A stretch of DNA of 64,000 nt from Nevskiaceae bacterium (lineage in GTDB: Bacteria > Patescibacteriota > Microgenomatia > PFEM01), in NCBI GenBank assembly GCA_035527075.1, contig DATLBE010000007.1, forward strand, positions 463 to 64,462. Reading direction: 5' to 3'. Of this stretch, positions 1 to 19,369 are shown one piece after another. The position numbers were made by a program, and so were the translations under genes. The notes beneath the pieces are model-generated. The model saw only the letters and a list, made by a program, of their open reading frames with translations, was not told where the DNA came from and made no database searches. Position 1 is the stretch's first letter, and every line of letters begins with the position of its first letter.

Positions 1-274
1 ATGCTCCCAAAGATACAGCCAGCCCAATGGCGGAATAAAAGATAGTCTTTTTTGATTTTTCCAAATATTCGGGATTACCGGAACTGGTAATATATCCCAC
101 TCCTCCCCAGACAAAGAAAAGGGCGGCTAAAATCCCGGCCAAGGTAACCAAAATCTCTATGGTGTTCATCATAAAATTTTGGACTTTGGAAACATCATCG
201 GGTTGGGCATAAACTTGTGAAGCAAAAATCATGGCAGTCAAAACGAAAGATTGCAGCGTCAGAAAGATTCTCAT
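1..274 (-). CDS. Partial CDS running off the window start, VirB2/TrbC-like conjugative pilin candidate. Has a signal peptide and two hydrophobic segments.
   Basis: Manual minus-strand translation from ATG at 274..272 gives MRIFLTLQSFVLTAMIFASQVYAQPDDVSKVQNFMMNTIEILVTLAGILAALFFVWGGVGYITSSGNPEYLEKSKKTIFYSAIGLAVSLGA with no stop before position 1. A strong SD (GGAGGTGA) lies at 276-283. The architecture (cleavable signal, two hydrophobic helices, short polar loop) is typical of TrbC/VirB2 pilins. It is absent from the ORF track because it is truncated by the window edge. Confidence 0.45.
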   Translation of the reverse strand, partial: MRIFLTLQSFVLTAMIFASQVYAQPDDVSKVQNFMMNTIEILVTLAGILAALFFVWGGVGYITSSGNPEYLEKSKKTIFYSAIGLAVSLGA

Positions 275-442
275 AACTCACCTCCTTCCCTTTACCAGCA
301 GGCAGGAGATAAATAAAAACTGCCCTTTCGGGCAGCCAAACACTGAATTTCAATTATCTAGATTAAAACAAATTATAAAGTAAAAGTCAAATTTAACCCT
401 TGATATCATTGTAATAATTTAGGTTGAAATGTAAACTTAAAA

Positions 443-1402
443 TTGAAATGGTATAATTTAGTTAGTGTGGACGATATCTTTTTGCTTCTATTTCTACTCT
501 CACCAGTTCCTCTAGTAATTAGCTTAATCAAGCCAAGCATTTTCTCTCGATATTTTAAAAGAGACTTATCACGCAAAAAGCTCAGCTTATTCTTTGGCGG
601 CGCAACTGTTCTTTTCTTTGTCCTTTTTTGTTTGACTATTGAAACTACTCCTCGAGAACAAGTACTTCAAGCAGAAAACAGTAAACAGGAAAGTCAAACA
701 GTAGCAGGAGAATCAATAGAAGAAACACATCCATCATTAGTAGAGCAACCAACCACTTCAAACGTGGAAGTAGCAATAGTTACTAGGGTCATTGATGGAG
801 ACACAATTGAAATCGAAGGAGGTCAAGAAGTTCGCTATATAGGCATCGATACCCCTGAAACTGTTCATCCCAGCAATCCAGTTGAGTGTTATGGCAAAGA
901 AGCTTCTCAAAAAAACAAAGAATTAGTTGAAGGGAAAGAAGTTAAACTAGAAAAAGATGTTTCAGAAACAGACAAATATGGTAGGCTTTTAAGGTATGTT
1001 TGGCTTGGTGATATGTTTGTGAACGAATACCTTGTAAAAGAGGGCTATGCCCAGTCAAGCAGCTATCCCCCTGATGTTAGATACCAAGACCGATTTTTGG
1101 AAGCTCAAAGAAAAGCAAGAGAGGAAAAGAAAGGATTGTGGGGAGATATTTGCAATCCCTCTCAACAAATTCAAACATCACCCCAGGTTACTCCAAAAAC
1201 AACTCCATCAGCTCCCACTAATGCAACCCCGCCTACTCAGCAATCCACTAATCAAACATCAGAAAGTTACACTTGTGATTGTTCAAAAACTTGTCCTCAA
1301 ATGTCATCTTGTGCAGAAGCTCAATATCAACTAAATGTTTGTGGTTGTACTAGAAGAGATGGAGATGAAGATGGTATTGCCTGCGATGCTGACTGCCAAT
1401 AG
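443..1402 (+). CDS. Secreted or membrane-anchored thermonuclease (SNase/micrococcal nuclease-like) with a C-terminal Excalibur calcium-binding domain
   Basis: N-terminal TM helix, then the SNase fold signature (VTRVIDGDTIEI...RYIGIDTPE...YGRLLRYVW). A Pro/Thr/Gln-rich linker follows, then a Cys-rich C-terminus with DGDEDGIACD resembling the Excalibur DxDxDGxxCE motif. Confidence 0.8.
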   Translation: MKWYNLVSVDDIFLLLFLLSPVPLVISLIKPSIFSRYFKRDLSRKKLSLFFGGATVLFFVLFCLTIETTPREQVLQAENSKQESQTVAGESIEETHPSLVEQPTTSNVEVAIVTRVIDGDTIEIEGGQEVRYIGIDTPETVHPSNPVECYGKEASQKNKELVEGKEVKLEKDVSETDKYGRLLRYVWLGDMFVNEYLVKEGYAQSSSYPPDVRYQDRFLEAQRKAREEKKGLWGDICNPSQQIQTSPQVTPKTTPSAPTNATPPTQQSTNQTSESYTCDCSKTCPQMSSCAEAQYQLNVCGCTRRDGDEDGIACDADCQ

Positions 1403-1553
1403 GGGCGACGAACATAGCAAGATCCTAGACTTTCGAAAAAGCCGGAAGTATCTACTACGCCGTCTACTTGATAGAAGAGAATAAGGAGTTTTTCAAAAAG
1501 TATCTCAAGAAGGCAAAAATGAAAGTAAAGTTTGTTAGATCGAAAAAACAAAT

Positions 1554-2654
1554 ATGAAAAAATTGCGGACAGGAAAAACAAAAAGTATTTTACTCAGTTC
1601 TGTTGACTCGGCACTACTAGCAGTTGAAGTGTACAACAAGCCTAGAACAACCTTTCGACAACAAAACTATATAACTTTAATGGTGATGGCTTGGACAAGG
1701 TTGCTTCAGTCATATTTTTACCAGGAGATAGGTGATAAATATTACTACAAAAAAAAGAATGGCAGATACGAGAGGATTAATGGCGAGAGAAAGGCCTGGG
1801 ATTTAGCAAAGTGCGTTAAGGAGTTTAACAAACTCAAATCTGATAAGCTCTCGAACGGAGTCCGTGCAAACCTCAAATTTATTATTGGATTAAGACATAA
1901 AATTGAACACCGTTATGTTTCATCAAAGGAACTTGAAGCAAGTGTGTTTGGAGAATGTCAGGCCTGTCTCTACAACTATGAGAATTTGTTGGTTGATCTT
2001 TATGGAGGCGATTACGCATTGAACGAGGCTCTCTCCTTTTCCTTACAATTTTCTCAGTTCAGAACAGAGGAACAACAGAGAGCCAGTAAAACATTATTGT
2101 CTAAAGACATTAAAGCAATAAAACAGTATGTTGACAAATTTAGAACCAGTCTTGACGATAACGTTTTCAACTCTCAAGAATACAGCATCAAACTAATTCA
2201 GATACCGAAAATTAGTAATACAAACAGATCAGATTTGGCTATAGAGTTTGTTCGTTGGGATGAACTAAACGAAGAAGATCGAAAAAACTACCAGAAAGTG
2301 ACAACAATAATCAAAGATAAAGTTGTGAAGAGAGATGTTATAAGTGCTGGAAAACTACTCCCATCTGCTGTTTTAAACGAAATAAAAAAGAACACTAAAA
2401 AGTCATTGACTCACTACGACCACAAATGCCTTTATTTTATTTTCGATATTCGTCCGGTTAGCGGAGAAGACAAAGATCCCGTCGATACTGAAACTGAATA
2501 TTGTTTATATGATGAAGTACATAAAGACTACCTTTATGAGGATAAATGGGTAGACTTTCTCTCACAACTGATCGCTGGCATGAAGTTAACAAGAAAAAAG
2601 TGGAAAAAATACTATAGGGAAAGAAAAAAATTAGATATTTCTAATTATAAATGA
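1554..2654 (+). CDS. Hypothetical protein with an HEPN-like Rx4H motif (possible RNase or abortive-infection-type defence protein)
   Basis: 366 aa with no housekeeping signature. Contains GLRHKIEHRY (R-x4-H, the HEPN catalytic motif) in a predicted helical context. The N-terminal LLSSVDSALLAVEVYNKP resembles DUF3644/Abi-like HEPN families. Confidence 0.4.
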   Translation: MKKLRTGKTKSILLSSVDSALLAVEVYNKPRTTFRQQNYITLMVMAWTRLLQSYFYQEIGDKYYYKKKNGRYERINGERKAWDLAKCVKEFNKLKSDKLSNGVRANLKFIIGLRHKIEHRYVSSKELEASVFGECQACLYNYENLLVDLYGGDYALNEALSFSLQFSQFRTEEQQRASKTLLSKDIKAIKQYVDKFRTSLDDNVFNSQEYSIKLIQIPKISNTNRSDLAIEFVRWDELNEEDRKNYQKVTTIIKDKVVKRDVISAGKLLPSAVLNEIKKNTKKSLTHYDHKCLYFIFDIRPVSGEDKDPVDTETEYCLYDEVHKDYLYEDKWVDFLSQLIAGMKLTRKKWKKYYRERKKLDISNYK

Positions 2655-2761
2655 CCTCTTTTTTATACTGTCTCATTTGTCTCATTTAGCCTAAAATGAT
2701 ATACTCAGAATGGTCGAGTTATAGGGACTAACAGGTCCCAGACCGACCTGCTCAGCAAGGT

Positions 2762-3457
2762 ATGAAAATCTCTACAGTCTCGGCATTGATGAATTCGCGG
2801 ATATTTATTAGCGAGTGGGTGCAGATTTGCTCAACACTTTTCTTGGGAGCAATGGCCATTTATGCTCCGTATATAGCTGAAAAACTTAAACGTAAGTATT
2901 TCCAACCAGGATTAAGAATCAAATTTAAGTTGGCAACTCCAGGCTGTCATCAAACACGGAGGGTTGGGAAAAACTCAGACTTTCCTGTCTATTATTTTAG
3001 ATTCTTAGTCGAAAATTTTGGCAAAACCCAAGCTGAAGAGTGTGAAGTTTTTTTAGAAAAGATTTTTAAAGAGAACGGTGCGGGTGAGATGGTAGAAAAT
3101 AAAAAAATTTCACCTGTAAATTTAAAATGGTCGGGAATAAGAGATCCGTATAAAAGAACTATTCAACCAGAAAAAGAAATGTACTGCGACCTAGGTAAAG
3201 TTCAACACCCAGATGATTATTATCAATTTATATATAAAGGGTTTTCTAAGAGAGATGAGGCAACTAATAAGTTTATCCTTGAACTTCCCGAAAAGTACTA
3301 TTCGCAGCAAGACTGCTTAACTCCAGGAAAATATAAGATAAAAATATCTGTTTATAGCAATAATGCTAAAAAAGTTTCCCGCCAATTTTTATTGTCGTGG
3401 ACTGGAAAGTGGAAAGATGAAGAGTCGGATATGTTTAATGAATTGGTCATCAGTTAA
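2762..3457 (+). CDS. Hypothetical protein
   Basis: 231-aa ORF with a hydrophobic N-terminal segment and no recognisable family. It is flanked by a ~21-bp imperfect direct repeat (2737-2760 and 3487-3510). Confidence 0.5.
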   Translation: MKISTVSALMNSRIFISEWVQICSTLFLGAMAIYAPYIAEKLKRKYFQPGLRIKFKLATPGCHQTRRVGKNSDFPVYYFRFLVENFGKTQAEECEVFLEKIFKENGAGEMVENKKISPVNLKWSGIRDPYKRTIQPEKEMYCDLGKVQHPDDYYQFIYKGFSKRDEATNKFILELPEKYYSQQDCLTPGKYKIKISVYSNNAKKVSRQFLLSWTGKWKDEESDMFNELVIS

Positions 3458-3585
3458 GCAGAGAATAATTTATAAGATTCAAAAGTTCTAGACTGACCTG
3501 CTTAGTACCGCGCAACTCAGAGAAAATAAACTATGGGAGTAAATAACTAACCTTACCATTTACCCCAAAGGCATACCTAGAGAAA

Positions 3586-3963
3586 ATGTCGAAAAAAATT
3601 CCACAAAGATATTACTTAAAGCCCTACCTTCTCTTTCTATTTAAGGAGATCCCCGGCATAATCCAAATATTTTCCCTACCTACAATATTTGGAATATTAT
3701 TAAATCGCCCTTGGTGGGCTTATTTAGTGGGTTGTTTAACGGGTTTCTTTTTGGGCAGTTATTTAATTGCAAGGACTCTTGTTTATTTGTGTAACTTAAT
3801 GGTTACTAGAGACCCATTTTTAAATATAAAAATTAATTCCCGGGAAGAATTCATAGAATATGTTAAGTGGTGGATAGTCTATATTTTAATAACTGGCCTC
3901 TTTTTTGCTCTGCTAAGCGCTGTGACTATTCTCCAGATAAACTATAATTTTTCTAGGAATTGA
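3586..3963 (+). CDS. Small integral membrane protein (about 3 TM helices), hypothetical
   Basis: 125 aa with three strongly hydrophobic stretches. Confidence 0.5.
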   Translation: MSKKIPQRYYLKPYLLFLFKEIPGIIQIFSLPTIFGILLNRPWWAYLVGCLTGFFLGSYLIARTLVYLCNLMVTRDPFLNIKINSREEFIEYVKWWIVYILITGLFFALLSAVTILQINYNFSRN

Positions 3964-3987
3964 TAACAAATTCTATTTTATAAAAAA

Positions 3988-4007
3988 GGTTCGAACTCTG
4001 TCCACGG
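3988..4007 (+). repeat. Repeat family A, partial inverted copy (GGTTCGAACTCTGTCCACGG)
   Basis: Matches the reverse complement of the GTGGACGAAGTTCGAAC core found at 5917, 8717 and 12819. Lies 25 nt 3' of ORF 3586..3963. Confidence 0.6.
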
Positions 4008-4166
4008 TTCGCAGCAAGCTTGAGCACCCCAAGTGACCGAGATCTCTTAAAAAAACTGATAATCCTTGCAAATCTCGCTGTTTTCTCTTCGAAGATTCGA
4101 ACCAGCTATTTTCTCTAAAATAAGTTTCAACGTAGTTTACTAAACCCTGCAAAATATCTTATAACA

Positions 4167-4195
4167 TTGATAATCTGCCTCTAAGTTGATAAAAT
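4167..4195 (+). promoter_or_regulatory. Sigma70-like promoter for ORF 4204..4806, possibly producing a leaderless mRNA
   Basis: TTGATA (4167-4172), 17-nt spacer, TAAAAT (4190-4195). The ATG at 4204 is about 8 nt downstream of the -10 box. Confidence 0.4.
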
Positions 4196-4203
4196 ATTGA
4201 TGT

Positions 4204-4806
4204 ATGATAGAGGGACCAAGGCGACCAAGGACAATCGATTTTACAGACGAAAGCAAGACTTATGTTAAGGTAAGAGACTTAACTTTTGAGATTGAACATT
4301 CGCCTTGGGGTTCTATAGAAGAATATGGGGTTGAGGGTGTTTACTCTCTTGCATGGAAATTAAAAGATGTTGATGAAACAGTAATGGATGGGGCTTTGAT
4401 TACAATTGAATCTGGTTGTCGAACTCTTATTCAACATGTCGTGTCAGAAACAACTTTTTGCGAAGTCCCTCAGACAGGCATATTAACTTTTTTGGCTGTT
4501 GATCCTGAGGGAAATCTCCACATCCATCATTTTGATTCGCAAGAAGAAGATGCTAGTAGCTACATGATGGAAGTTAAAAAAGGCTGGACAATGTGTTGGT
4601 TCGCCTCTAAAAATCAAATTATACCAGCTCACGTATTAGAGCTTAGAGAACCAGGATTTAAAACGTCAGAGTTAGCTACGGTTGAATTTGGTGTGGCGGA
4701 ATTCAATGGGCACCCAATTCCACCAAAACTATGGGAAACTATAAAGCGTCTAATGGAGGAAGACTACGATCCTAAACTACTGTGGGACTGGGTTCGAAAA
4801 TCGTGA
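4204..4806 (+). CDS. Hypothetical protein
   Basis: 200-aa ORF, soluble, no recognisable motif. Confidence 0.5.
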   Translation: MIEGPRRPRTIDFTDESKTYVKVRDLTFEIEHSPWGSIEEYGVEGVYSLAWKLKDVDETVMDGALITIESGCRTLIQHVVSETTFCEVPQTGILTFLAVDPEGNLHIHHFDSQEEDASSYMMEVKKGWTMCWFASKNQIIPAHVLELREPGFKTSELATVEFGVAEFNGHPIPPKLWETIKRLMEEDYDPKLLWDWVRKS

Positions 4807-5047
4807 GCTAGCCTCTGCAAATAAGAAGTACTAACAAAGTTCACTAGCCCCCCTTTCAATGTTTGCCATAAACGAACTTTATCACTTTGCGAAAAAAATG
4901 TTAAATCACGGGCATGTTATATTAAATGCCAACTAGCTCGAACGATGGTATGTTTTCCGACGAATTGACTGGGTAACTGAGCTTGAATATCCAGAGTTTA
5001 CATCAAAGCAAGTAAATTCTTTTTTAGAGATACAATTAGAGTAATTT

Positions 5048-5524
5048 TTATAACTCTAGTAACCTGACGATAAAAAGATTAAGAATCGCCGCAAAGCTGA
5101 CCCACAAAATATAAGGAATGAGCAACAACCCAGCAATTCTAGAAATTTTATAAAAGCTCAAAGTAGCCAGCAAGATAAAAACCCAGAGGGCAATGATTTC
5201 CAAGAAAGCATATTGGGGCAAGCGCAAGCCAAAAAAGATGATTGACCATAAGGAATTAAGAACCAGTTGAATGGCAAAGAATATCAAAGCAGTTTTGACT
5301 TCTTTCTTCCCAATCCCCTTATTCCAGATTAAATAGGCAGCAATACCCATCAAGGTATAAAGAAGAAACCAAACAGGAGCAAATAACCAATTAGGAGGGC
5401 TAAAACTTGGTTTTTCAAGCCCAGCATACCAAGAAGGGATTGCAGGAGTGGTAAATATTAACCCCACCAGGCCTGCTCCCTGGCAAATCAAAACAGCTAA
5501 AATTAAGTTAAAAATCCTTTTCAT
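5048..5524 (-). CDS. tspO: TspO/MBR family tryptophan-rich sensory protein
   Basis: 158 aa with 5 TM helices. The Trp-rich motifs (WYAGLEKPSFSPPNWLFAPVWFLLYTLMGIAAYLIW) are characteristic of TspO/MBR. Confidence 0.85.
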   Translation of the reverse strand: MKRIFNLILAVLICQGAGLVGLIFTTPAIPSWYAGLEKPSFSPPNWLFAPVWFLLYTLMGIAAYLIWNKGIGKKEVKTALIFFAIQLVLNSLWSIIFFGLRLPQYAFLEIIALWVFILLATLSFYKISRIAGLLLIPYILWVSFAAILNLFIVRLLEL

Positions 5525-5765
5525 ATTTATTTTTCAAAATTTCAATCAAATCCTCTCTGTACAAACCCTCTAATTTTGGAATCAAATCTAACTCCAAATA
5601 ATCTTTAATTCCATGAACCACCCTTGGATTCACAAATTCTTCAAAATATTTTCCAGCTTCCTTAAAACCCTTCCCAAAATCCAAAAAAAATCGAGTGCTT
5701 TTGTCTTCCAACAAAATTTTATTTCCCCCAATTTCATTTATTCCTCCATAAAAAGTCAGTTTCAT
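5508..5765 (-). pseudogene. N-terminal fragment of an MBL-fold metallo-hydrolase (RNase J / beta-CASP-like) truncated before the HxHxDH motif
   Basis: MKLTFYGGINEIGGNKILLEDKSTRFFLDFGKGF matches the first beta-strands of MBL-fold hydrolases. The ORF stops after 85 aa, overlapping the tspO start, before any metal-binding motif. Confidence 0.4.
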
Positions 5766-5907
5766 AATAAAATATTCTCAAATTCTTAAGAATATTGGAA
5801 TGTTTATATTATTTGGCGATAAATGCTTTGTCTAAAATTGACGCAAATTCTCATATCTATATTCTACCAAATCAAAAAAGTCCAGGAAACTGGGCTTCTG
5901 AAACTAA

Positions 5908-5936
5908 CTCCCCATCGTGGACGAAGTTCGAACTAG
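5908..5936 (+). repeat. Repeat family A copy (CTCCCCATCGTGGACGAAGTTCGAACTAG)
   Basis: Near-identical to 8701-8735 and 12797-12840. Contains the palindromic TTCGAA and a tRNA T-arm-like GTTCGAAC motif. Lies immediately 3' of ORF 5953..6495. Confidence 0.8.
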
Positions 5937-5952
5937 TTTGAGTTTTTGATTT

Positions 5953-6495
5953 CTAAAGCCCAACTTTTGGAACATACGGCTGTAATCTATAAACCGGTAT
6001 ATTATTTTCTTTAAGCCAAGTTGTAAATTTTTCATCTATATCATCAGAAGGGCTTTCTAGGAAATTTGGTTGAACAATTAATAAAAGCTTGGCTTTTTTC
6101 ATTGTAAGAGCAAGTAGCACATATTCTGGATAAACCTCGTCAAGAATGATTAATCCTTTAAATCGAACCAAGTCAGGATAAGACAAGCCGTCATGGCCAG
6201 AAAATCTGTCTTGTCTTCTGGGTTCATGATAAGCGATTTCAATTTGATTAGCTCTCATAAAAACACAGTCAGAGAATTGTTGGTTTTCAGGTTCTGTTAA
6301 GATTTTATGCCTTAAAATTCTGCCAAAAGTTGATTTGCCAGAGGCGTTTTCATCAGCGGTAAGAACTACTACAGAACTGTTCCTTAGAAGTTCTAAAACA
6401 TCTTCAACTTCTTGAGTTCTTAAACTAAGTTTATCTTCAAGAATAGGATGGCCTAAAGAATCTCTAATAACTGGGTCGAATTCTATTTTTGGCAT
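5953..6495 (-). CDS. Hypothetical protein with a deviant P-loop (ASGKST) and hhhhDE Walker-B-like motif
   Basis: VVVLTADENASGKSTFGRIL and LIILDEV suggest a small NTPase-like fold. No family assignment is possible. Confidence 0.4.
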   Translation of the reverse strand: MPKIEFDPVIRDSLGHPILEDKLSLRTQEVEDVLELLRNSSVVVLTADENASGKSTFGRILRHKILTEPENQQFSDCVFMRANQIEIAYHEPRRQDRFSGHDGLSYPDLVRFKGLIILDEVYPEYVLLALTMKKAKLLLIVQPNFLESPSDDIDEKFTTWLKENNIPVYRLQPYVPKVGL

Positions 6496-10685: not shown

Positions 10686-10710
10686 ATTTGGGTATAATAA
10701 GTTCCAACTG

Positions 10711-12545: not shown

Positions 12546-12547
12546 GT

Positions 12548-12766: not shown

Positions 12767-12796
12767 ATTCTTAATATATCACATTTAGATATATTA

Positions 12797-12840: not shown

Positions 12841-13181
12841 TTACCAGATTTACCCGTAGACCAAATCAAAAACAATCTCTTTTTAAACCCACCCCGCTTT
12901 TTTCGTTTCTGCTTTTGATATTCTTCGACCTGACGAAAACTTAATTTATAATGAGAAGCAATAGACTTAACCAACTCCAAAACATCAGCCAGTTCGTTCA
13001 GAAGCGACTTCTTTGGGGCATCCACCAATTCTTTTGATTCTTCCACCAATTTTTTCTTTAATTCTTTTTCAAATTCTATCTCACCCAAGATTCTGGTTTC
13101 GTATTCCCCTTTGTTAGCCTCGATAAATTCAGGGATTCTATCTCTGATGAGCTTGCGATGGTAATATCTCTTTTTTGTCAT
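12837..13181 (-). CDS. MazG-like nucleotide pyrophosphohydrolase (PRA-PH/house-cleaning NTPase family)
   Basis: N-terminal KLIRDRIPEFIE and the later ELADVLELV helix are signatures of the MazG/phosphoribosyl-ATP pyrophosphohydrolase-like all-alpha NTP pyrophosphatases. Confidence 0.65.
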   Translation of the reverse strand: MTKKRYYHRKLIRDRIPEFIEANKGEYETRILGEIEFEKELKKKLVEESKELVDAPKKSLLNELADVLELVKSIASHYKLSFRQVEEYQKQKRKKRGGFKKRLFLIWSTGKSGK

Positions 13182-13293
13182 ACCCCCATTTTACCAAAAC
13201 ACCCCTTCTAACAAAAACACAAATCAAAAAAGCCCATGAAACTGGGCAGAAATCACTTGAATATAAAAATATAAAAGCTATACTCTGCGATGG

Positions 13294-13734
13294 ATGGAAA
13301 AAGAACAAAAACTATCTAGACCCCCTGTGGTTCAAAAACACCCATTTGGGTGTGGTGTGGCCTGCACGGCTTTTATCTTAAATTTAAGCTACCAAGAAAC
13401 ATTGAAACTTTTTGGAAACGGCAAAGAAAAAGCCTGCAATTTTGGATTTTCCTGTGAAGAAATAGCTGAAGCCTTAAATAATTCAGGAGGACATTTTGAG
13501 CATCGACATATCAAAGACGAAATTAAAGGAAAAATATATCAAGACAATACAATTGTTTTCATTAAAAGATCTAAACAGTACCCTACTGGACATTACCTCT
13601 GCAGATTCAAAGGTTTATGGATGGATCCATGGATAAATTTTCCTCAAAATCAAAATATTAAAGAAGCTAAAGCGGGCTTTAGAATTAAATTACCAGATAA
13701 AGCTATCTACGCCATTCTCCAAAAGGAATATTAG
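13294..13734 (+). CDS. Putative papain-like/C39-like cysteine peptidase
   Basis: QKHPFGCGVACTAFIL (Gln-x-x-x-Cys-Gly-x-Ala-Cys) with a downstream His (TGHYLC) resembles peptidase C39-type catalytic residues. Tentative. Confidence 0.4.
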   Translation: MEKEQKLSRPPVVQKHPFGCGVACTAFILNLSYQETLKLFGNGKEKACNFGFSCEEIAEALNNSGGHFEHRHIKDEIKGKIYQDNTIVFIKRSKQYPTGHYLCRFKGLWMDPWINFPQNQNIKEAKAGFRIKLPDKAIYAILQKEY

Positions 13735-13760
13735 CTCCCCGTATTGGACTCGAACCAGAC
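13732..13760 (+). repeat. Family A-like, tRNA-3'-end-like element (TAGCTCCCCGTATTGGACTCGAACCAGAC)
   Basis: Shares the GCTCCCC...GGAC..TCGAAC pattern. A T-arm-like GGACTCGAACC is followed by an anticodon-arm-like hairpin, but no complete tRNA can be folded. Confidence 0.5.
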
Positions 13761-13992
13761 AAATTCAGTCTGAAAAAGGCCAAAGCATCAGTTATAAGAA
13801 ATTTAAGGGAGCTGAAGCTGTCTTAATCTAGCCGATATAAAGTGTCTGGGAGCCAGCGCGTTTTTATTAGAACTTTTAGCCCTATTTTCCGTTTCCCCGG
13901 CCTTAATTTGGAGCTAAGAAATTTATGTTGGTGGTTGCAAAGCCGTTTAACTTAGGACAAAATATCAGTAAAAGAAAAAGAGGTGGTAAATA

Positions 13993-14399: not shown

Positions 14400-14613
14400 A
14401 TGGTAAACATGGCTGAAAAAAGAAAAAAAAGAACGAGTAGCTATTTATATTGACGGAAGTAATTTTTACAATTATTTAAAAGATATATTCTTTTAGGAAA
14501 AACTAAAAAAGACAGATTATTACTTGTTATTTTTACATTGAAAAACAGAAAAGTAAGAATCATTTCAGCAAGAGATATTAATAGAAAAGAGGTGAAACTT
14601 TATGAAAAAACAG
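14400..14613 (+). pseudogene. Degraded brnT-like (DUF497) toxin gene remnant
   Basis: The frame ending at 14613 encodes ...DYLLVIFTLKNRKVRIISARDINRKEVKLYEKTV, matching the conserved RIISAR C-terminus of BrnT toxins and overlapping the brnA start. The N-terminal half is disrupted by stops and frameshifts around an A8 homopolymer at 14412-14419. Confidence 0.35.
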
Positions 14614-14862
14614 TTTAAATTACCTAAATTTAAAAATGAAGACCAGGAAAGAAAATTCTGGGCTAAAGTTGATTTAGCTGAATATTTTGAGCCAGCTGGT
14701 TTTCAGCCAGTTTCTTTTCCTAATCTTAAACCAACAACTCGATCAATTTCGATTCGTTTACCTGAGTATTTGATTGATAGAGTCAAAGAACAGGCTAATG
14801 AAATTAATGTTCCTTATCAGTCTTTAATCAAGGGTTATTTAAAAAAGGCGATTTTTGGATAG
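14602..14862 (+). CDS. BrnA-like (CopG/RHH) antitoxin
   Basis: 86 aa. The SISIRLPEYLIDRVKEQANEINVPYQSLIKGYLKK matches the BrnA antitoxin family ribbon-helix-helix C-terminal region. Confidence 0.6.
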   Translation: MKKQFKLPKFKNEDQERKFWAKVDLAEYFEPAGFQPVSFPNLKPTTRSISIRLPEYLIDRVKEQANEINVPYQSLIKGYLKKAIFG

Positions 14863-14946: not shown

Positions 14947-15726
14947 TTATTCAATCCCCATCCATACTTTTTTTCCTATTCCCTCTTTTTTTATTTTTCT
15001 TACCGTTGTTAAGTAAAATTGGATTTCGTCATTATCTTCTTCCTCTGATTGCTCTTGAATAAACTTATTTAGGTAGCCCTGCATGTATCTATCCGGGCAA
15101 ACCAAAAGAATGGTCGGGAAAGGGTGGTGAGTGTTTATTTCCCAGACATTGGATGAATAATAATTAAAAAATCTAAAAATACGATGCCGTAAGGCATAAC
15201 GGGGAGTCTTCCTGACAAACATTTCCAAAAAATACCTTTTAGTTTCCCCCTGAGGTTCTTCAATGACAAAATATAAATCCGGCAGGGGCTCTGGAAGATA
15301 ATCGTGTTTGGCTAGATCAGTCCGGTTAAAGAAATGAAGTTTGGCTTTGTTTGCTAAGCAAAGATTTTCTAAATGAAAATAAATATCAGCTAAGAATAAG
15401 CTGTGGTTAATGAATTTCCTTGAGCGGAGGTTTTCCCGATAGATTCGGTTAAGCAGTGACTTGTTGATGTCTGGCTGTTTTTTTAAAACACCGGCGGCCT
15501 TTGATTTAAGATAATAAATGGCTGGCTGAATATTCTCCCCTAATTTCCGGGAATATATTCGGCCGAGATATTTGTTTTCGGTTAAGTCTTTTAGCCAGAG
15601 ATTGATTCGTCGGTGATCTTTGTGGTTAAGGAATTTCTGGAGGTGGCGTCTGTTAAGGAAGCGGAAGCGATGCAAGAGGATAAGTATTTCAGTTTGTTTT
15701 GAAGTCAGTTTTTTTGTTTGAGTCAT
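14947..15726 (-). CDS. Replication-relaxation family protein (Replic_Relax, winged-HTH)
   Basis: 259 aa. The N-terminal LTSKQTEILILLHRFRFLNRRHLQKFL has the typical wHTH organisation of the Replic_Relax plasmid/ICE proteins that partner with coupling ATPases. Confidence 0.55.
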   Translation of the reverse strand: MTQTKKLTSKQTEILILLHRFRFLNRRHLQKFLNHKDHRRINLWLKDLTENKYLGRIYSRKLGENIQPAIYYLKSKAAGVLKKQPDINKSLLNRIYRENLRSRKFINHSLFLADIYFHLENLCLANKAKLHFFNRTDLAKHDYLPEPLPDLYFVIEEPQGETKRYFLEMFVRKTPRYALRHRIFRFFNYYSSNVWEINTHHPFPTILLVCPDRYMQGYLNKFIQEQSEEEDNDEIQFYLTTVRKIKKEGIGKKVWMGIE

Positions 15727-15860: not shown

Positions 15861-18512
15861 TTAAGGCATGATGCTTCCGGGCTGAACTTCGGCAATCAGC
15901 TTTGGCTGTAATGCCTTGTCCATCTTTTTGCTTTTTGCCGGCTGTCTTTTATAAGGAACGGTGTAAAGCTTTCTTGAAAGCTTAATGATTTGATTTTTTC
16001 TTTCGTTATTAAGGCTGGTTGTCACCGGAGTGGTTACTCCTGAAAATGGTTCTTCCGGGTTAAGGGCGCTTATTTTGATGTAAAAGTTAAATGAAGGAAG
16101 GCTGGCAATCTCGCCTTTTTCAATATAGGGCGAGAATTGGGGCAGAATCAGCCTTTCATCTTCCGGGTTCGCTGTCCGAAAACAAATGACTGTTCCGGTG
16201 TTGGCTAAGATGACATTAACCAAAGACTTATCCTTAAGCTGAGAAGTGGTCTGGTGAGCCATGACCGCATTTAGCCGGTATTTCCTGGCTTCTGATAAGA
16301 TTTCAGCAAAAGCAGTCGTGGCAAAGCTTTGAAATTCGTCAACGTAAAGATAAAAATCCTTCCTGTCTTTATCAGCAACCCTGGCTCTTTTTAAAGCCGC
16401 CAGCTGGATTTTAGTCATAATTAATATTCCGAAGACCTCTGAGGAGTCCTCGCCAATTCTGCCTTTAGAAACATTGCAAAGCAAGATTTTTCCGGACGAT
16501 AATATCTCGTCAAAGTTAATGCTTGATTTTTCCTGTTCTAAAATTCTTTTGGCTATTGGTGAAAAAAGAAAGCGGCCAATTTTATTGGTAATTGGAGATA
16601 TCATTTTTACCCTTTGGTAATTGCCGGCTTTGGCAAACTCATAACGCCAAAAATCTTTCAAGTCCTCATCATCCAATCCCCAGACAATTTTTTTACGATA
16701 AGTCGTGTCGATCAGCAGTTTGTAAATGGTAAATAAGGTTGGTTTTTCCGTGGTAAAAGCAGTATGGATGGTGTTTCTTAAAATATATTCCATTCTTGGT
16801 CCAGAATATCTTTCTGAGTAGATCTTGTGAAACAGGGAGATAATGCTTTCAGTCAAAAATTCTTTTTCCCTTAATGCATCGTCTTCATTCAGCCCTGGTG
16901 TTAGCTCCAGAAGGTTTAGGCCGATCGGATAGCTGACATCGTCCGGGTTAAAATAAATGACGTCACTGGCCCTGTCTTTGGGGATGGCAGGCAGTATTTT
17001 ATCAATCAAATCTCCATGAGGATCAATCACACATAATCCTTTCTTGTTTTTAATGTCCTGCAAAATCATGGACAAAAGCAAAGTCGATTTGCCGGTGCCG
17101 GTGGCACCAAGAACATACATATGTCTTCTTCTTTCATCTTGGGTTAAGCCGATTTTAGTGACAGTGCCGCCGTAAGTGTTTTTCGCAAAGATGACATCAA
17201 AATTATCAGTCTTTTTTAAGGAAAGCGGCGCTGGCAGTTGTTTGCTGTGTTGCTTGACCAAATCTTCAGTTTTGGTTTTAAGGGTAAAAGGCAGGTGGTA
17301 AATGTCGGCTACTTCCGAAGCTGATAGAACCGAATTACCAAACAAACCAAGCAGCCTGTTTTTAAATAAGTAAGCTTTAATTTTTTTAATTAAGTCTTGC
17401 TTAAAGTTGAAAAAAGTTACTAATGACTGATAGTTGGAGTTTCTAAAAGAAGACAAGGCGGAAATAAAGCCTCTGGTGCGTTTATTTTGTTTGCCGCGAT
17501 TACTGTTAACCACCAGAAGTCGCAAAGAAGTTTTAAAAAGCTGCTGGTCAAGTTTGTCTTTAATCAGTTTTTCAAGCTCTTTTTGATAAGCGTTGCTCGC
17601 TTTTTTATTTTTATCCAACCCTTCAAGATGCAAAAATGGCCCTTCCTTACCACCAGTTGCCAAAAATACCAAAAAGCCTACCGGTATTAGGAATACATAA
17701 AAGATAAGTCTTATTAATAATCTAAATAAATTAGCCAACTTATATTTTGCTTTCATATCTTTCAAACCGATTGCCAGGTCGCTTTTTGCTGAAATCAACC
17801 TAGTGATTGTTCTGGCTTGGTTTTTAAAGCGCCTGTTGACTGGAGAAGCGATAATTTGAAAGGATATCAGCTCGCCTTTATCCAGCTTGGTCATGTTGCC
17901 GGTGATATAGGCAATGGGATCGTGTTCTTTAAGCAGTTTTTGCTTTTTTAACGGATAGGCAAAGTGGCTTGATTGCTTAAAGTTAACGATTTTAAACTGC
18001 TCGCTTGTAAATTTTTTTGATAAATAATCATTAACCTGATTAATGCTAATCCCCGGAAGATAAGAAAGAAGGCTTTTTCTGACTAATTCAGCGTCTTCAC
18101 CATTTATTCTCAGTAAATACCTAATGCCCTCTTTTTTAGTGGAAACAATTTCAAAAGCATAGCTTTTATAGCTGTCAAAAAGTTTGTAGAAAAATGATCG
18201 TTGTTTGGCCAAGCCGTGAATGAGATTAAAAAGTTGCTGGGTGGAAAGAGGGCTTTGCAGGGTTTCTGTCAATGGTCTAATTTCAAATAAAATATACTTT
18301 TGTTTTAACTCCCATCTGATAAATAGTAGCCTCAATAATGTATAGACAATTAAAAGAAAAATAAATGTTAGAACTAAAGTTACTAGCAAATCGCTGAAAA
18401 AAGAAGTATCTAGAGATTTTAGGGCTCTGTTAAAGGAAAAGTCAGCTTGAAGAGGAGGCTCAAAAAAAAGGAAGCTTTTAATAAAATCTAGTGATTCACC
18501 AAAAATCCTCAT
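15861..18512 (-). CDS. Type IV secretion coupling protein (VirD4/TraD/TraG-like ATPase)
   Basis: 883 aa. Two N-terminal TM helices. Walker A LGATGTGKSTLL followed by CVIDPHGDL (TrwB/TraD hallmark). Walker B YLYVDEFQSF. Confidence 0.7.
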   Translation of the reverse strand: MRIFGESLDFIKSFLFFEPPLQADFSFNRALKSLDTSFFSDLLVTLVLTFIFLLIVYTLLRLLFIRWELKQKYILFEIRPLTETLQSPLSTQQLFNLIHGLAKQRSFFYKLFDSYKSYAFEIVSTKKEGIRYLLRINGEDAELVRKSLLSYLPGISINQVNDYLSKKFTSEQFKIVNFKQSSHFAYPLKKQKLLKEHDPIAYITGNMTKLDKGELISFQIIASPVNRRFKNQARTITRLISAKSDLAIGLKDMKAKYKLANLFRLLIRLIFYVFLIPVGFLVFLATGGKEGPFLHLEGLDKNKKASNAYQKELEKLIKDKLDQQLFKTSLRLLVVNSNRGKQNKRTRGFISALSSFRNSNYQSLVTFFNFKQDLIKKIKAYLFKNRLLGLFGNSVLSASEVADIYHLPFTLKTKTEDLVKQHSKQLPAPLSLKKTDNFDVIFAKNTYGGTVTKIGLTQDERRRHMYVLGATGTGKSTLLLSMILQDIKNKKGLCVIDPHGDLIDKILPAIPKDRASDVIYFNPDDVSYPIGLNLLELTPGLNEDDALREKEFLTESIISLFHKIYSERYSGPRMEYILRNTIHTAFTTEKPTLFTIYKLLIDTTYRKKIVWGLDDEDLKDFWRYEFAKAGNYQRVKMISPITNKIGRFLFSPIAKRILEQEKSSINFDEILSSGKILLCNVSKGRIGEDSSEVFGILIMTKIQLAALKRARVADKDRKDFYLYVDEFQSFATTAFAEILSEARKYRLNAVMAHQTTSQLKDKSLVNVILANTGTVICFRTANPEDERLILPQFSPYIEKGEIASLPSFNFYIKISALNPEEPFSGVTTPVTTSLNNERKNQIIKLSRKLYTVPYKRQPAKSKKMDKALQPKLIAEVQPGSIMP

Positions 18513-18587
18513 AATTTACCTTTTTGGGCAGTATTATGAGGCAGGATTAGTTATTAGTATACTACATGGAATAAAGAATCGAAACAC

Positions 18588-18809
18588 CTATTCATTTCTT
18601 GCATGACAAGGCTGCTTTCTTTTTTTTAAAATTTTAATATTCAAATAAAAGTTAACCAACGAAAGGGTAATTAATATTGCTAACAAAGCGATAAGAAGCT
18701 GCCCAAGTTCGGTGCAATAAATTACAGTTTTGGGTCGAATAAGAAAATACAGACCCAGCCCTGAGAGAATTACACCGACGCAAAGCAGTTTCAATGTCAA
18801 CCTACTCAT
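18588..18809 (-). CDS. Small two-TM membrane protein, hypothetical
   Basis: 73 aa with two hydrophobic helices. Confidence 0.35.
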   Translation of the reverse strand: MSRLTLKLLCVGVILSGLGLYFLIRPKTVIYCTELGQLLIALLAILITLSLVNFYLNIKILKKRKQPCHARNE

Positions 18810-18846
18810 TTTGATATTGACTTTGGAAGGAATTATCTTTTTTAGG

Positions 18847-19260
18847 TTATAAACTTTCGAAAAATACTATAAGCGCCTGAGTTCTGTCTTCCAGAAACCG
18901 TCTTGTTTCTTCTTCCTTCTCCCCTTTTTTTTCATTGGGTTGAGAAAATTCAGGAAGATGCCAGCAGTATGGGTTGTATCTCCTCACTATAGGATCTTGA
19001 TGTTTTGAAGAATCAATACAAGGGCCCAAAACCTCTTCCAAAACTTTCCGTTTTTCACGCATTTTCTGCTGAATTTTCTGCCTTAAAGCATGATTTGCAT
19101 GGGCAGCTCTCCATGCCTGACCCACTTGCCCAAGCAACCCATAAGAGTTTATTTTGTTCTCTCTAAAATCTTTAAGAGCACTCTCAAATTCACTGACTAC
19201 TTCCTCTTTCAGCAAAGTATGCTTTTCTAAAGTTGTGTTTCCTTTTCCTCTTTCTGTCAT
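18847..19260 (-). CDS. Hypothetical protein adjacent to tRNA-Val
   Basis: 137-aa charged, helical ORF. No family recognised. Confidence 0.4.
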   Translation of the reverse strand: MTERGKGNTTLEKHTLLKEEVVSEFESALKDFRENKINSYGLLGQVGQAWRAAHANHALRQKIQQKMREKRKVLEEVLGPCIDSSKHQDPIVRRYNPYCWHLPEFSQPNEKKGEKEEETRRFLEDRTQALIVFFESL

Positions 19261-19295
19261 TTTTGTTCTCCAAAAAGTCTTTTTATCACTTTGGG

Positions 19296-19369
19296 TGGTC
19301 GTGCCTGGATTCGAACCAGGGGCCTCTTCGATGTGAACGAAGCACTCTAACCGGCTGAGCTACACGACC
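19296..19369 (-). tRNA. tRNA-Val (anticodon CAC)
   Basis: The reverse complement folds as a cloverleaf: acceptor GGTCGTG/CACGACC, D-arm GCTC-AGCCGGTTA-GAGT, anticodon arm CTTCG-TTCACAT-CGAAG (anticodon CAC), T-arm CCTGG-TTCGAAT-CCAGG, discriminator A. CCA is not encoded. Confidence 0.85.

What the first reader, a model, noticed from the sequence alone, without database searches (positions are those of the whole stretch)
1..19369. Remnants of a conjugative or mobilisable element next to tRNA-Val
Three hallmark conjugation functions occur in the accessory block. A VirB2/TrbC-like pilin gene with a perfect SD is truncated by the window start (1-274, minus strand). A replication-relaxation family protein lies at 14947-15726. 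A VirD4/TraD-type coupling ATPase lies at 15861-18512 (Walker A GATGTGKST, VIDPHGD, Walker B VDEF). The block ends at tRNA-Val (19296-19369), a classic integration target. More T4SS genes and an integrase probably lie upstream of the window. A 12-bp identity (GATTCGAACCAG) between the tRNA T-arm (19307-19318) and 4089-4100 could be a coincidental T-loop match or an att core.
Basis: partly seen in the sequence, partly recalled or inferred. Interest (0 to 1): 0.6.

Follow-up and report, generated by a model that had tools for sequence, protein, structure and literature searches.

The report
Recombinase-less conjugative island beside tRNA-Val
In a tiny-genome "candidate phyla radiation" bacterium, window 1-19369 is most of a ~25 kb island next to tRNA-Val that holds a DNA-transfer module, a mating-channel operon and an array of small cargo genes separated by recombination-site relics, but it lacks the recombinase that related copies carry.

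Summary
Pfam confirms a VirB2-like pilin (1-274), a Replic_Relax/MOBC protein (14947-15726) and a VirD4/TraD-like coupling ATPase (15861-18512) beside tRNA-Val(CAC) at 19292-19370.

- **Upstream:** extending the contig shows VirB6, PrgI/VirB3, TrsD, VirB4 and an M23 hydrolase, then polysaccharide genes. No integrase is present.
- **Host:** a Microgenomatia (Patescibacteria) bacterium. In 80 related species the ParB-LepB-tRNA-Val synteny is kept, but none has these genes downstream.
- **Recurring order:** tRNA, coupling ATPase, MOBC, variable cargo, then the T4SS operon recurs in two other genomes. In two relatives a large serine recombinase sits between a different tRNA and the coupling ATPase. 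The window copy has two small unrelated ORFs there.
- **Att site:** no tRNA-Val duplication exists, and the 12-mer is not an att core.
- **Unexpected:** the 14 kb cargo zone is a cassette-like array. Its junction repeats match the C-terminal coding tail and tRNA-like att arm of serine recombinases. The same motif marks shuffled cassette arrays in other metagenomes.

Verdict: a recombinase-less ICE/IME-type island. It is a new variant of known kinds and of moderate interest.

The parts
1..274 (-). First 91 of 108 codons of a VirB2/TrbC-like T4SS pilin. It is the first gene of the T4SS operon, which continues upstream of the window.
   Evidence: Pfam T4SS_pilin 1e-10 and TrbC 5e-7. SD and ATG read. 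Full gene and downstream operon on L001.
443..1402 (+). Secreted staphylococcal-type nuclease with an Excalibur domain (cargo).
   Evidence: Pfam SNase 5.9e-28 and Excalibur 2e-4. Homologues lie next to the same module in L006 and next to a cassette array in L140.
1554..2654 (+). DUF3644 protein, a candidate phage-defence gene (cargo).
   Evidence: Pfam DUF3644 1e-53. PADLOC PDC-S19 4.3e-135.
2655..13800 (.). Cassette-like cargo zone of about 16 small genes: TspO, GNAT, HIT, a MazG-like protein and hypotheticals. Nearly every intergenic gap holds a repeat relic.
   Evidence: ORFs and Pfam. Repeats. The repeats are absent from the rest of the window and from the 80 related loci.
3985..4011 (+). 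Family-A junction relic in inverted orientation, just after the stop of the + strand gene at 3586-3963.
   Evidence: Sequence read. Its antisense reads LRTVDRVRT. Weak profile hit, E 0.5.
4094..4105 (+). The 12-mer shared with the tRNA-Val T-arm. It lies in the same relic-rich intergenic gap.
   Evidence: No extension of the match.
5886..5940 (-). Family-A junction motif A1, followed by a terminator-like hairpin. Its antisense encodes LPIVDEVRTSLSF.
7273..7383 (-). Family-B 111-nt junction repeat, copy 1.
8685..8739 (-). Family-A junction motif A2, after the GNAT gene. Its antisense encodes DWLPIVDEVRTTFKIKFVNKALF.
   Evidence: The independent recombinase-tail profile A7 hits it at E 9e-3.
9321..9431 (-). 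Family-B junction repeat, copy 2.
10690..10832 (-). Split or compound family-A junction after the HIT gene. Its antisense encodes NWLPLVDLFRNQKIEF... and, in another frame, WDDFRTFC.
   Evidence: Profile A7 hit at E 4.5e-4.
11353..11385 (+). Recombinase-tail-like fragment (AGWDDFRT).
12318..12389 (-). Junction relic related to 10690-10782. Its antisense encodes LPLVDLFRNQKLEFDYSL...
   Evidence: (family D3).
12432..12542 (-). Family-B junction repeat, copy 3.
12787..12841 (-). Family-A junction motif A3, which starts at the MazG-like stop codon.
   Evidence: Profile A7 hit at E 4e-3.
13735..13770 (+). Decayed tRNA 3'-end-like fragment: the antisense of a T-loop plus acceptor end, reading LPVLDSNQT.
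   Evidence: Sequence read.
14602..14862 (+). CopG/BrnA-type antitoxin without a called toxin partner.
   Evidence: Pfam CopG_antitoxin 3.8e-27.
14947..15726 (-). Replic_Relax (MOBC-type) putative relaxase: an N-terminal winged helix plus a C-terminal alpha/beta domain.
15861..18512 (-). VirD4/TraD-like type IV coupling protein with an N-terminal membrane domain (DUF8128).
   Evidence: It is 77-81% identical, and the same 883 aa length, in L006 and L008.
18513..18630 (-). Conserved 5' region of the module, up to 93% identical to L008. It probably holds the promoter. An oriT here is not excluded.
18588..19260 (-). Two small ORFs (73 and 137 aa) with no family. They occupy the place where relatives have the serine recombinase and a 53-55 aa ORF.
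19292..19370 (-). tRNA-Val(CAC), the island boundary. Its 3' end faces the island.
   Evidence: The ParB-LepB-tRNA-Val position is conserved in most of 80 species.

Best explanation
Window 1-19369 is the tRNA-proximal 19 kb of a roughly 25 kb ICE/IME-type island in a Microgenomatia (Patescibacteria) chromosome.

Read from tRNA-Val, the island contains:
1. Two small ORFs.
2. A DNA-processing and coupling module: a VirD4-like T4CP plus a MOBC/Replic_Relax putative relaxase.
3. About 14 kb of small, individually expressed cargo genes.
4. A monoderm-type (MPF-FATA-like) T4SS operon: pilin, VirB6, PrgI/VirB3, TrsD, VirB4 and an M23 hydrolase.

In related genomes the same module is delivered to tRNA 3' ends by a large serine recombinase. 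That recombinase's reading frame ends inside the attachment site. The window copy has lost the recombinase, so it can no longer excise on its own. It may still move if a recombinase acts in trans, or it may serve only as fixed transfer machinery.

The cargo zone grew by repeated site-specific insertion. Each cargo unit is bounded by a relic made of a recombinase-gene tail plus a tRNA-like att arm.

**Shown:** gene identities, colinearity in three genomes, the recombinase in relatives, absence of these genes from the orthologous site in 80 species, and the relationship of the relics to recombinase tails.

**Inferred:** actual DNA transfer, relaxase activity, an oriT, the order of insertion events, and that the T4SS operon belongs to the mobile unit.
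For: - **Gene identities:**
- **Intact and conserved module:** T4CP and MOBC have the same lengths as in relatives. Nucleotide identity is 79% against 81% amino-acid identity, which indicates purifying selection.
- **Module boundaries:** DNA similarity to L006 and L008 covers only the stretch from the promoter region to the MOBC stop codon.
- **Recombinase in relatives:** a large serine recombinase with Resolvase, Recombinase and Zn-ribbon domains lies between tRNA-Lys or tRNA-Glu and the T4CP.
- **Recurring order:** tRNA-(LSR)-T4CP-MOBC-cargo-pilin-VirB6-PrgI-TrsD-VirB4-M23, all co-directional, recurs in GCA_042571875.1 (L008 plus L211, 29 kb of cargo) and in SRR28370467_212950 (L213 plus L212, about 10 kb of cargo, with an ArdC-N protein).
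- **Accessory at this site:** 80 species keep ParB-LepB-tRNA-Val but have other genes downstream.
- **Relics in the window:** six tail-like fragments all lie on the + strand, against 1 hit in 1.2 Mb of related DNA. The independent profile A7 finds only these at E<0.01.
- **The tail belongs to recombinases:** full-length serine recombinases P0265, P0340 and P0335 carry the same tail, which in some runs on into antisense tRNA.
- **Direct example next to an intact recombinase:** L008 shows 'tail plus 10-nt tRNA-Glu end' repeated at the borders of small recombinase-less segments.
- **Literature:** the MOBC, VirD4 and serine-integrase combination is known from streptococcal IME class 8 (PMC5357655, PMC5704250).
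Against: - No recombinase, att duplication or excised form was found for the window copy.
- VirB4 is far more conserved (at least 72% identity in the top 120 of more than 5690 homologues) than MOBC (133 homologues, falling quickly to 50%). Patescibacteria T4SSs are reported as chromosomal and mostly relaxase-free (PMC12102498). The T4SS may therefore be resident rather than part of the element.
- The far end of the island is not defined. The similarity between the polysaccharide genes beyond the T4SS and the genes downstream of tRNA-Val in relatives is weak.
- The relics resemble a tRNA-Glu-like end, not tRNA-Val, so the cargo was not built by simple serial insertion into tRNA-Val.
- The orientation of motif arrays relative to nearby tRNAs in other contigs is not uniform.
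- The PD-(D/E)XK fold of the MOBC C-terminal domain was not confirmed.
Confidence: 0.6

Rival explanations
1. There is no mobile element. The T4SS operon is the resident, vertically inherited Patescibacteria secretion system used for host interaction. The T4CP and the Replic_Relax protein have been recruited for non-conjugative roles, and the block is simply a fast-evolving chromosomal region that happens to lie next to tRNA-Val.
For: - VirB4 is extremely conserved and nearly universal in the class.
- PMC12102498 reports that these T4SSs are chromosomal and lack relaxases in most genomes. It also reports T4CP genes far from virB4 and not essential in the one strain tested by transposon mutagenesis.
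- The window has no integrase and no att repeat.
Against: - The T4CP-MOBC module sits at three different tRNA loci with different flanks. In relatives a serine recombinase lies beside it, and in one of them that gene overlaps the tRNA.
- DNA similarity stops exactly at the module borders.
- The orthologous site in 80 species lacks these genes.
- An ArdC-N anti-restriction gene accompanies the module in one relative.
Confidence: 0.22
2. The cargo zone is an active gene-cassette platform, analogous to an integron but driven by a large serine recombinase. Cassettes made of a promoter, an ORF and a 'tail/att' site are captured and shuffled in trans at the conserved motif. The zone is not the debris of whole elements that decayed.
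For: - The same 27-31 nt motif bounds 0.5-1 kb single-gene units in many low-GC metagenome contigs, with 2-3 copies per contig on one strand.
- L142, L147 and L204 share the motif and its left and right flanks in different combinations, while the ORFs between them differ.
- L008 has two recombinase-less segments, each ending in 'tail plus tRNA-end core', between the tRNA and an intact recombinase.
- The cargo is typical of cassettes: GNAT, HIT, MazG-like, toxin-antitoxin parts and a defence candidate.
Against: - No intact recombinase was found next to any of the metagenome arrays held here.
- All seven contigs of the window's own population show the same cassette order.
- Large serine recombinases are not known to recombine attL or attR-type sites without a directionality factor (own knowledge).
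- Homologous recombination at 30-110 nt repeats could give the same mosaics.
Confidence: 0.3
3. The family-A and family-B repeats are structured 3'-UTR RNA elements or REP-like hairpins placed before terminators, and have nothing to do with recombination.
For: - The motif follows stop codons and is often followed by a terminator-like hairpin.
- Its outer flanks can pair, and the pairing bases differ between copies.
Against: - Rfam has no match.
- The inner palindrome is not kept in the variant copies.
- Across copies the antisense frame keeps a peptide through synonymous and conservative changes. Arg is coded by AGA, CGC, CGG and CGA, and ATCGTG changed to CTAGTA keeps L/I-V.
- That same peptide ends real serine recombinases.
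Confidence: 0.08

Closest known systems
Patescibacteria-clade T4SS (MPF-FATA-derived), Quinonero-Coronel et al. 2025 (PMC12102498)
   Same: - Same operon content: a VirB2-like pilin, VirB6, PrgI/VirB3, a TrsD-like N-terminal VirB4 fragment, VirB4 and an M23 hydrolase instead of VirB1.
- Chromosomal location.
- The T4CP is encoded more than 20 genes from virB4.
   Different: - Here a MOBC-type putative relaxase is adjacent to the T4CP. That paper found relaxases in only 103 genomes.
- The T4CP-MOBC pair is colinear with the T4SS across a cargo zone in three genomes, with a serine recombinase and a tRNA at one end in relatives. This points to an ICE-like unit rather than a purely co-opted system.
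Streptococcal IME class 8 (serine integrase, VirD4 coupling protein and MobC/PF13814 relaxase), Coluzzi et al. 2017 (PMC5357655)
   Same: The same three-protein combination and compact order (recombinase, coupling protein, relaxase) is seen in relatives L006 and L008. The relaxase belongs to the same Pfam family.
   Different: - The window copy lacks the integrase.
- The recombinase of the relatives lies beside tRNA genes (its frame overlaps tRNA-Lys in L006; a 10-nt copy of the tRNA-Glu 3' end lies in its tail in L008), whereas serine-integrase IMEs are described as integrating inside genes (PMC5704250).
- A T4SS operon is linked in cis.
Tandem accretion with cis-mobilisable elements (CIMEs) and composite SCC islands
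   Same: Arrays of recombinase-less units are delimited by repeated att-type sequences next to a conserved target gene (PMC5704250 for CIMEs; SCC from own knowledge).
   Different: - Units here are mostly single genes of 0.5-1.5 kb.
- The repeat is the recombinase gene's own 3' tail plus a tRNA-like arm.
- The enzyme class is a large serine recombinase acting at tRNA-like sites.
Integron cassette arrays and CALINs
   Same: Both have one-strand arrays of small, mostly unknown-function ORFs, each followed by a conserved site, with shuffled order between genomes.
   Different: - No IntI tyrosine recombinase is present.
- The sites lack the R''/R' (RYYYAAC / GTTRRRY) boxes and the length of attC sites.
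- Cassettes appear to carry their own promoters.

Membership tests
Type IV coupling protein (VirD4/TraD/TrwB) | P-loop NTPase domain of the TrwB/VirD4 type with Walker A and B motifs | tested here: met
   TrwB_AAD_bind 38.9 bits (cut-off 20.5) and T4SS-DNA_transf 25.9 bits (cut-off 20.1). TrwB structure 1e9r at 5.8e-8. GATGTGKST and VDEF read.
Type IV coupling protein (VirD4/TraD/TrwB) | C-terminal TraG-D_C region rather than a HerA or FtsK architecture | tested here: met
   TraG-D_C 24.9 bits (cut-off 22). FtsK_SpoIIIE falls below its cut-off at 18.1 bits against 24. DUF87/HerA also matches, which is expected within this superfamily. All NCBIfam equivalogs score below their cut-offs, so this is a divergent member.
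Type IV coupling protein (VirD4/TraD/TrwB) | N-terminal membrane anchor and a gene next to a relaxase | tested here: met
   Hydrophobic stretches near residues 40-65 and 265-290. DUF8128 N-terminal domain. The MOBC gene lies 134 nt downstream.
MOBC relaxase (Pfam Replic_Relax PF13814) | Match to the family profile | tested here: met
   45.7 bits against a cut-off of 25.3. PF13814 is equated with CONJscan MOBC in PMC5357655.
MOBC relaxase (Pfam Replic_Relax PF13814) | N-terminal HTH fused to a PD-(D/E)XK nuclease-like domain (PMC3424549) | tested here: inconclusive
MOBC relaxase (Pfam Replic_Relax PF13814) | Site-specific nicking at an oriT | not testable with these tools
   No oriT was identified. 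The only conserved non-coding stretch is 18513-18630.
VirB2/TrbC pilin | Profile match, signal peptide and two hydrophobic helices in a protein of about 100 aa | tested here: met
   Pfam. The sequence MRIFLTLQSFVLTAMIFASQVYA is followed by two hydrophobic stretches. The protein is 108 aa on L001.
MPF-FATA-type T4SS | VirB4 of the monoderm (CD1110) family with VirB3/PrgI, a VirB6-like protein and a cell-wall hydrolase in one operon | tested here: met
   NCBIfam conju_CD1110 347.9 bits (cut-off 325). PrgI 29.5 bits (cut-off 27). Peptidase_M23. TrbL_3 plus a pilin domain in the 428-aa protein. All of these lie outside the window on L001.
Integrative conjugative or mobilisable element (ICE/IME) | Own integrase or recombinase | tested here: not met
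   No recombinase family matches any ORF of 1-19369 or of the 8.4 kb upstream. tblastn with the recombinases of the relatives finds nothing in the 64 kb window. This feature is present in relatives L006 and L008.
Integrative conjugative or mobilisable element (ICE/IME) | Flanking att repeats derived from the target | tested here: not met
   There is no second copy of the tRNA-Val 3' end. The 12-mers at 4094 and 4878 are isolated, and words similar to the one at 4878 recur elsewhere in the window.
Integrative conjugative or mobilisable element (ICE/IME) | Absent from the same site in related genomes, or present at other sites | tested here: met
   Absent downstream of tRNA-Val in 80 species. 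The module sits at tRNA-Lys and tRNA-Glu loci in relatives.
Integrative conjugative or mobilisable element (ICE/IME) | Excision and transfer | not testable with these tools
   This needs reads or an experiment. All seven contigs of this population are colinear.
Integron | IntI tyrosine recombinase and attC sites with R''/L''/L'/R' boxes | tested here: not met
   No Phage_integrase hit. The motif is about 30-37 nt, and what is conserved is its centre, not RYYYAAC / GTTRRRY ends.

The most novel reading that the evidence does not exclude
Patescibacteria carry an integron-like gene-capture system run by tRNA-targeting large serine recombinases. The recombinase's C-terminal coding tail doubles as one arm of its attachment site. 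Single-gene cassettes carrying a copy of that 'tail/att' sequence are inserted and shuffled in trans, building cargo arrays between the transfer module and the T4SS of ICE-like units. On this reading, part of the 'co-opted' Patescibacteria T4SS is still a working conjugation system.
Probability: 0.25. Interest if true: 0.8.

Novelty: new variant of a known kind. Interest (0 to 1): 0.55.

Why it matters
Patescibacteria are very abundant and almost genetically intractable, and they are thought to have turned their T4SS to non-conjugative uses. A colinear unit of T4CP, MOBC relaxase candidate, cargo and T4SS that sits at different tRNA genes, with a serine recombinase in relatives, has two consequences:

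- It makes the question 'do these bacteria still conjugate?' directly testable.
- It names candidate parts (recombinase, att motif, relaxase, oriT region) for building genetic tools.

If the junction motif is a real recombination site, it would also explain how these tiny genomes exchange defence and accessory genes.

Tried and rejected
- **tRNA-Val att duplication.** The 25-mer with up to 3 mismatches and all exact 11-mers gave only isolated 11-12-mers at 4094 and 4878. The one at 4878 was judged chance because similar AT-rich words occur elsewhere in the window. The one at 4094 has no extension.
- **Classical integron.** No IntI was found, and the repeats do not have attC box structure.
- **Known RNA families.** Rfam at E<=1 found only the tRNA.
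- **Junction motif as a true tRNA 3' half.** The T-stem does not pair, so I kept only 'tRNA-Glu-like, decayed'.
- **Small antisense ORFs as a real protein family.** There are no Pfam hits. Most copies lack a start codon or have a stop immediately upstream.
- **An intact recombinase beside the metagenome arrays.** None was found in the mostly short loci fetched.
- **Alternative cassette orders in the window's own population.** None was found.
- **The 137-aa and 73-aa ORFs as recombinase remnants.** No similarity was found.
- **Fold evidence for the MOBC nuclease domain.** The searches were swamped by winged-helix matches. The afdb50 library was unavailable.
- **Family B repeats.** They were not detected by the recombinase-tail profiles. 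Their link to recombinase tails rests only on a conserved antisense peptide.

Full report
**1. Observation**

The window has about 38% GC. ARAGORN and Rfam find a single tRNA, tRNA-Val(CAC), at 19292-19370 on the minus strand. Its 3' end faces lower coordinates, towards the block in question.

Pfam confirms the three hallmark genes with scores above the curated cut-offs:
- ORF 2-274(-) is a T4SS_pilin/TrbC protein. It has a signal-peptide-like start and a GGAGG 7 nt before the ATG.
- 14947-15726(-) is a Replic_Relax protein.
- 15861-18512(-) matches TrwB_AAD_bind, T4SS-DNA_transf and TraG-D_C as well as the related DUF87/HerA model. TrwB is its best solved relative. It falls below every NCBIfam equivalog cut-off, so it is a divergent coupling protein.

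The 12-mer exists, but at 4094-4105 and 19308-19319. The 25-nt tRNA 3' probe has no second copy.

**2. What lies upstream**

An exact-protein look-up found the same sequence on longer metagenome contigs. Window base 1 corresponds to L001 base 8448, at 99.99% identity.

Upstream, all on the minus strand, are:
- the rest of the 108-aa pilin;
- a 428-aa pilin-domain/TrbL_3 (VirB6-like) protein;
- a PrgI (VirB3-like) protein;
- a 186-aa TrsD-like protein;
- a VirB4 that passes the NCBIfam CD1110-family cut-off;
- an M23 peptidase and a C39 peptidase.

After these come a polysaccharide flippase and glycosyltransferases. The prediction of an integrase or relaxase upstream is not.

**3. Host and site**

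ParB-anchored loci from 80 species are all Microgenomatia: Shapiro-, Woese-, Ames- and Collierbacteria and others. All keep IleRS-RodA-L21-L27-ParB-LepB, and most have tRNA-Val next to it.

None has a homologue of any block protein in the 10 kb that follow, apart from weak glycosyltransferase and flippase hits. In the closest relative with enough sequence, tRNA-Val is followed by PnuC, an AAA_28 protein, a lipase-like protein and a glycosyltransferase cluster. The block is accessory at this site.

**4. The T4CP-MOBC module is mobile in relatives**

The Replic_Relax protein has only 133 detectable homologues. Those that carry a meaningful source name are Patescibacteria; the identical protein itself is labelled Nevskiaceae (see section 8). 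Pfam PF13814 corresponds to the MOBC relaxase class and to streptococcal IME class 8 (serine integrase, VirD4, MobC).

- In a 406-kb JGI contig (L006, 81% identity) the order is RuvC, tRNA-Lys, a 579-aa ORF on the opposite strand that overlaps the tRNA by 62 nt, a 53-aa ORF, T4CP, MOBC.
- In GCA_042571875.1 (L008, 71% identity) the order is RuvC, tRNA-Glu, two small genes, a 576-aa ORF, a 55-aa ORF, T4CP, MOBC.

Both long ORFs are large serine recombinases with Resolvase, Recombinase and Zn-ribbon domains, and they are 80% identical to each other.

DNA similarity between the window and these loci covers only 14962-18618. That is about 105 nt of 5' region, the T4CP and MOBC, and it stops at the MOBC stop codon. 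The window has a 137-aa and a 73-aa ORF of no family where the recombinase should be, and no trace of a recombinase anywhere in its 64 kb. A Woykebacteria relative has MOBC alone beside tRNA-Glu(CTC).

**5. Is the T4SS part of the unit?**

VirB4 has more than 5690 homologues at E<1e-30, and the top 120 are all at least 72% identical. This agrees with the published picture of a widespread chromosomal Patescibacteria T4SS that mostly lacks relaxases, with T4CP genes usually far from virB4.

However, the co-directional order T4CP-MOBC-cargo-pilin-VirB6-PrgI-TrsD-VirB4-M23 recurs:
- in GCA_042571875.1, with 29 kb of cargo including DEAD/MZB and Vsr genes, and VirB4 95% identical;
- on a 29-kb Logan contig, with MOBC 50% identical, an ArdC-N protein and about 10 kb of cargo.

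In the window the T4CP lies about 26 genes from virB4, outside the 20-gene neighbourhood that the published survey used. I therefore regard the whole ~25 kb as one ICE-like unit as the best reading. I keep 'resident T4SS plus a separate mobilisable module' as a serious rival. The distal border could not be fixed.

**6. The cargo zone**

Between about 2.7 and 13.8 kb lie about 16 small genes: a nuclease, DUF3644 (PADLOC PDC-S19, 4e-135), TspO, GNAT, HIT, a MazG-like protein and many of unknown function. A CopG/BrnA antitoxin gene follows at 14602-14862. Nearly every intergenic gap in the zone holds a repeat.

Family A reads GTTCGAAC-TCGTCCACGATGGGGAGC on the minus strand. It follows stop codons at 5886-5940, 8685-8739 and 12787-12841, with split or variant copies at 10690-10832, 11353-11385, 12318-12389, 4916-4960 and, inverted, 3985-4011. 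Family B (111 nt) is at 7273, 9321 and 12432. None of these occurs in the other 45 kb of the window or in the 80 related loci.

A metagenome scan with the 17-mer returned many chance hits in high-GC coding DNA. It also returned about 40 low-GC loci that share the extended motif, often 2-3 copies per contig on one strand, spaced 0.35-3 kb apart, each after a small ORF. L142, L147 and L204 share the motif and its flanks in different combinations, while the ORFs between them differ.

**7. What the motif is**

Read on the antisense strand, the copies encode W-LPIVD(D/E)(V/F)R(T/N)... Arginine is coded by AGA, CGC, CGG or CGA in different copies. Variant copies change ATCGTG to CTAGTA yet keep (I/L)V. 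Longer copies run about 27 codons to a stop.

- **Fragments that extend upstream.** A profile search returned only short ORFs. Some extend upstream as ...SNxxLxxxxxxPTYRKPFDxxAKGLSRxNWLP....
- **Full-length recombinases with the same tail.** An exhaustive search with that independent profile (A7) found 1043 proteins. They include serine recombinases (P0265 and P0340 full-length; P0335 N-terminally truncated) that carry this region at their extreme C-terminus. In P0340 and P0305 the tail continues as ...DSN(P/L)..., the signature of an antisense tRNA 3' end.
- **The window's own fragments.** In the window's six-frame translation, profile A7 hits only three fragments at E<0.01, all in the cargo zone. 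A peptide pattern finds six fragments in the window, all on the + strand, against one in 1.2 Mb of related DNA.
- **Direct example beside an intact recombinase.** In L008 the last 19 codons of the recombinase gene plus the 10-nt tRNA-Glu end TGGGGTCACA are repeated at 768-836 and 2521-2589. They bound two recombinase-less segments that lie between the tRNA and the recombinase.

The window motif ...GATGGGGAGCCA resembles a tRNA-Glu 3' end. This rests on direct sequence comparison and on my own knowledge of the E. coli tRNA-Glu sequence.

I infer that in this recombinase family the reading frame ends inside a tRNA-mimicking att arm, and that the repeats are att-type relics or sites.

Two questions remain open:
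- whether the array arose by decay of whole elements or by capture of single cassettes in trans. All seven contigs of this population show one order, and no intact recombinase was found beside the other arrays;
- what family B is. It keeps an antisense peptide (LEGRNLNITK.F.HIIKVFEDF...) across 24% nucleotide divergence, but the tail profiles do not detect it.

**8. Protein-level checks**

T4CP and MOBC are intact and have the same lengths as in relatives. Amino-acid identity is not lower than nucleotide identity, so both are under purifying selection.

The sequence-identical MOBC protein is labelled 'Nevskiaceae bacterium' in NCBI, and several syntenic MAGs are labelled Gammaproteobacteria. 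These labels conflict with the gene content.

**9. Verdict**

The block is a recombinase-less ICE/IME-type island at tRNA-Val (confidence about 0.6). It combines two known kinds: the Patescibacteria T4SS, and a MOBC, VirD4 and serine-recombinase mobilisation module. It adds a cassette-like cargo zone whose junctions derive from recombinase tails and tRNA-like att arms.

The most novel reading that the evidence does not exclude is a serine-recombinase-driven cassette-capture system in Patescibacteria (probability about 0.25).

Noticed in passing
window 5886-5940, 8685-8739, 12787-12841 and variants; loci L097, L142, L147, L173, L204, L205 and others: A conserved 27-31 nt junction motif (…GT(T/C)CGAAC(A/T)TCGTCCACGATGGGGAGC) bounds small gene units here and in about 40 low-GC metagenome contigs. 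Its antisense encodes the C-terminal tail of large serine recombinases.
   Followed up: yes
window 7273-7383, 9321-9431, 12432-12542: Three copies of a 111-nt repeat (family B) follow stop codons. The + strand frame keeps a peptide (LEGRNLNITK.F.HIIKVFEDF…) despite 24% nucleotide divergence. The recombinase-tail profiles do not detect it, and its origin is unexplained.
   Followed up: partly
L008 382-391, 827-836, 2580-2589: The 10-nt tRNA-Glu 3' end TGGGGTCACA is repeated twice downstream of the tRNA. Each downstream copy is preceded by about 60 nt identical to the last 19 codons of the serine recombinase gene. These repeats delimit two recombinase-less segments.
   Followed up: partly
L006 5144-5216 and 5155-6894: The serine recombinase ORF overlaps the whole 3' part of tRNA-Lys (62 nt) on the opposite strand. 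Its last 20 codons are therefore antisense tRNA.
   Followed up: partly
window 1554-2654: The DUF3644 protein matches the PADLOC phage-defence candidate PDC-S19 at 4e-135. A related module in L006 is followed by SLFN/AlbA_2, HEPN and MmeI-type genes, so the cargo is defence-rich.
   Followed up: partly
window 5508-5765: The 85-aa ORF begins MKLTFYGGINEIGGNKILLED, which by eye looks like the N-terminus of a metallo-beta-lactamase-fold RNase J-type protein. It is probably a gene fragment that overlaps the TspO start. It has no Pfam hit.
   Followed up: no
window 18483-18591 vs L008 4500-4607: The 5' region of the T4CP gene is 93% identical between genomes, while the coding region is 77% identical. 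It contains a direct CCTGCCT repeat and could hold a regulatory site or an oriT.
   Followed up: partly
window 19993-25771 and loci L010-L089: The order IleRS-RodA-L21-(small ORF)-L27-ParB-LepB is conserved across 80 Microgenomatia species, mostly with tRNA-Val next to it. In the window a 72-aa Cys-rich (CxxC…CxxC) ORF at 21150-21368 sits between L21 and L27.
   Followed up: partly
P0001; loci L010, L011, L013, L017 and others: The source labels look wrong. The identical MOBC protein is named 'Nevskiaceae bacterium', and many syntenic MAGs are named 'uncultured Gammaproteobacteria' or 'Pseudomonadales'. Their gene order and relatives are those of Microgenomatia.
   Followed up: no
window ~10482, ~12400-12840, ~13068 (ends of L002, L215, L217, L218, L005): Independent assemblies of the same population break repeatedly inside the cargo zone near the repeats. 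This hints at repeat-induced breaks or strain heterogeneity there.
   Followed up: partly
window 8618-8640 and 12767-12790: Extended -10-like boxes (TGTTATAAT, TGATATATT) lie 6-7 nt before the ATG of the 390-aa and 72-aa ORFs with no Shine-Dalgarno sequence. This suggests leaderless cassette transcripts.
   Followed up: no
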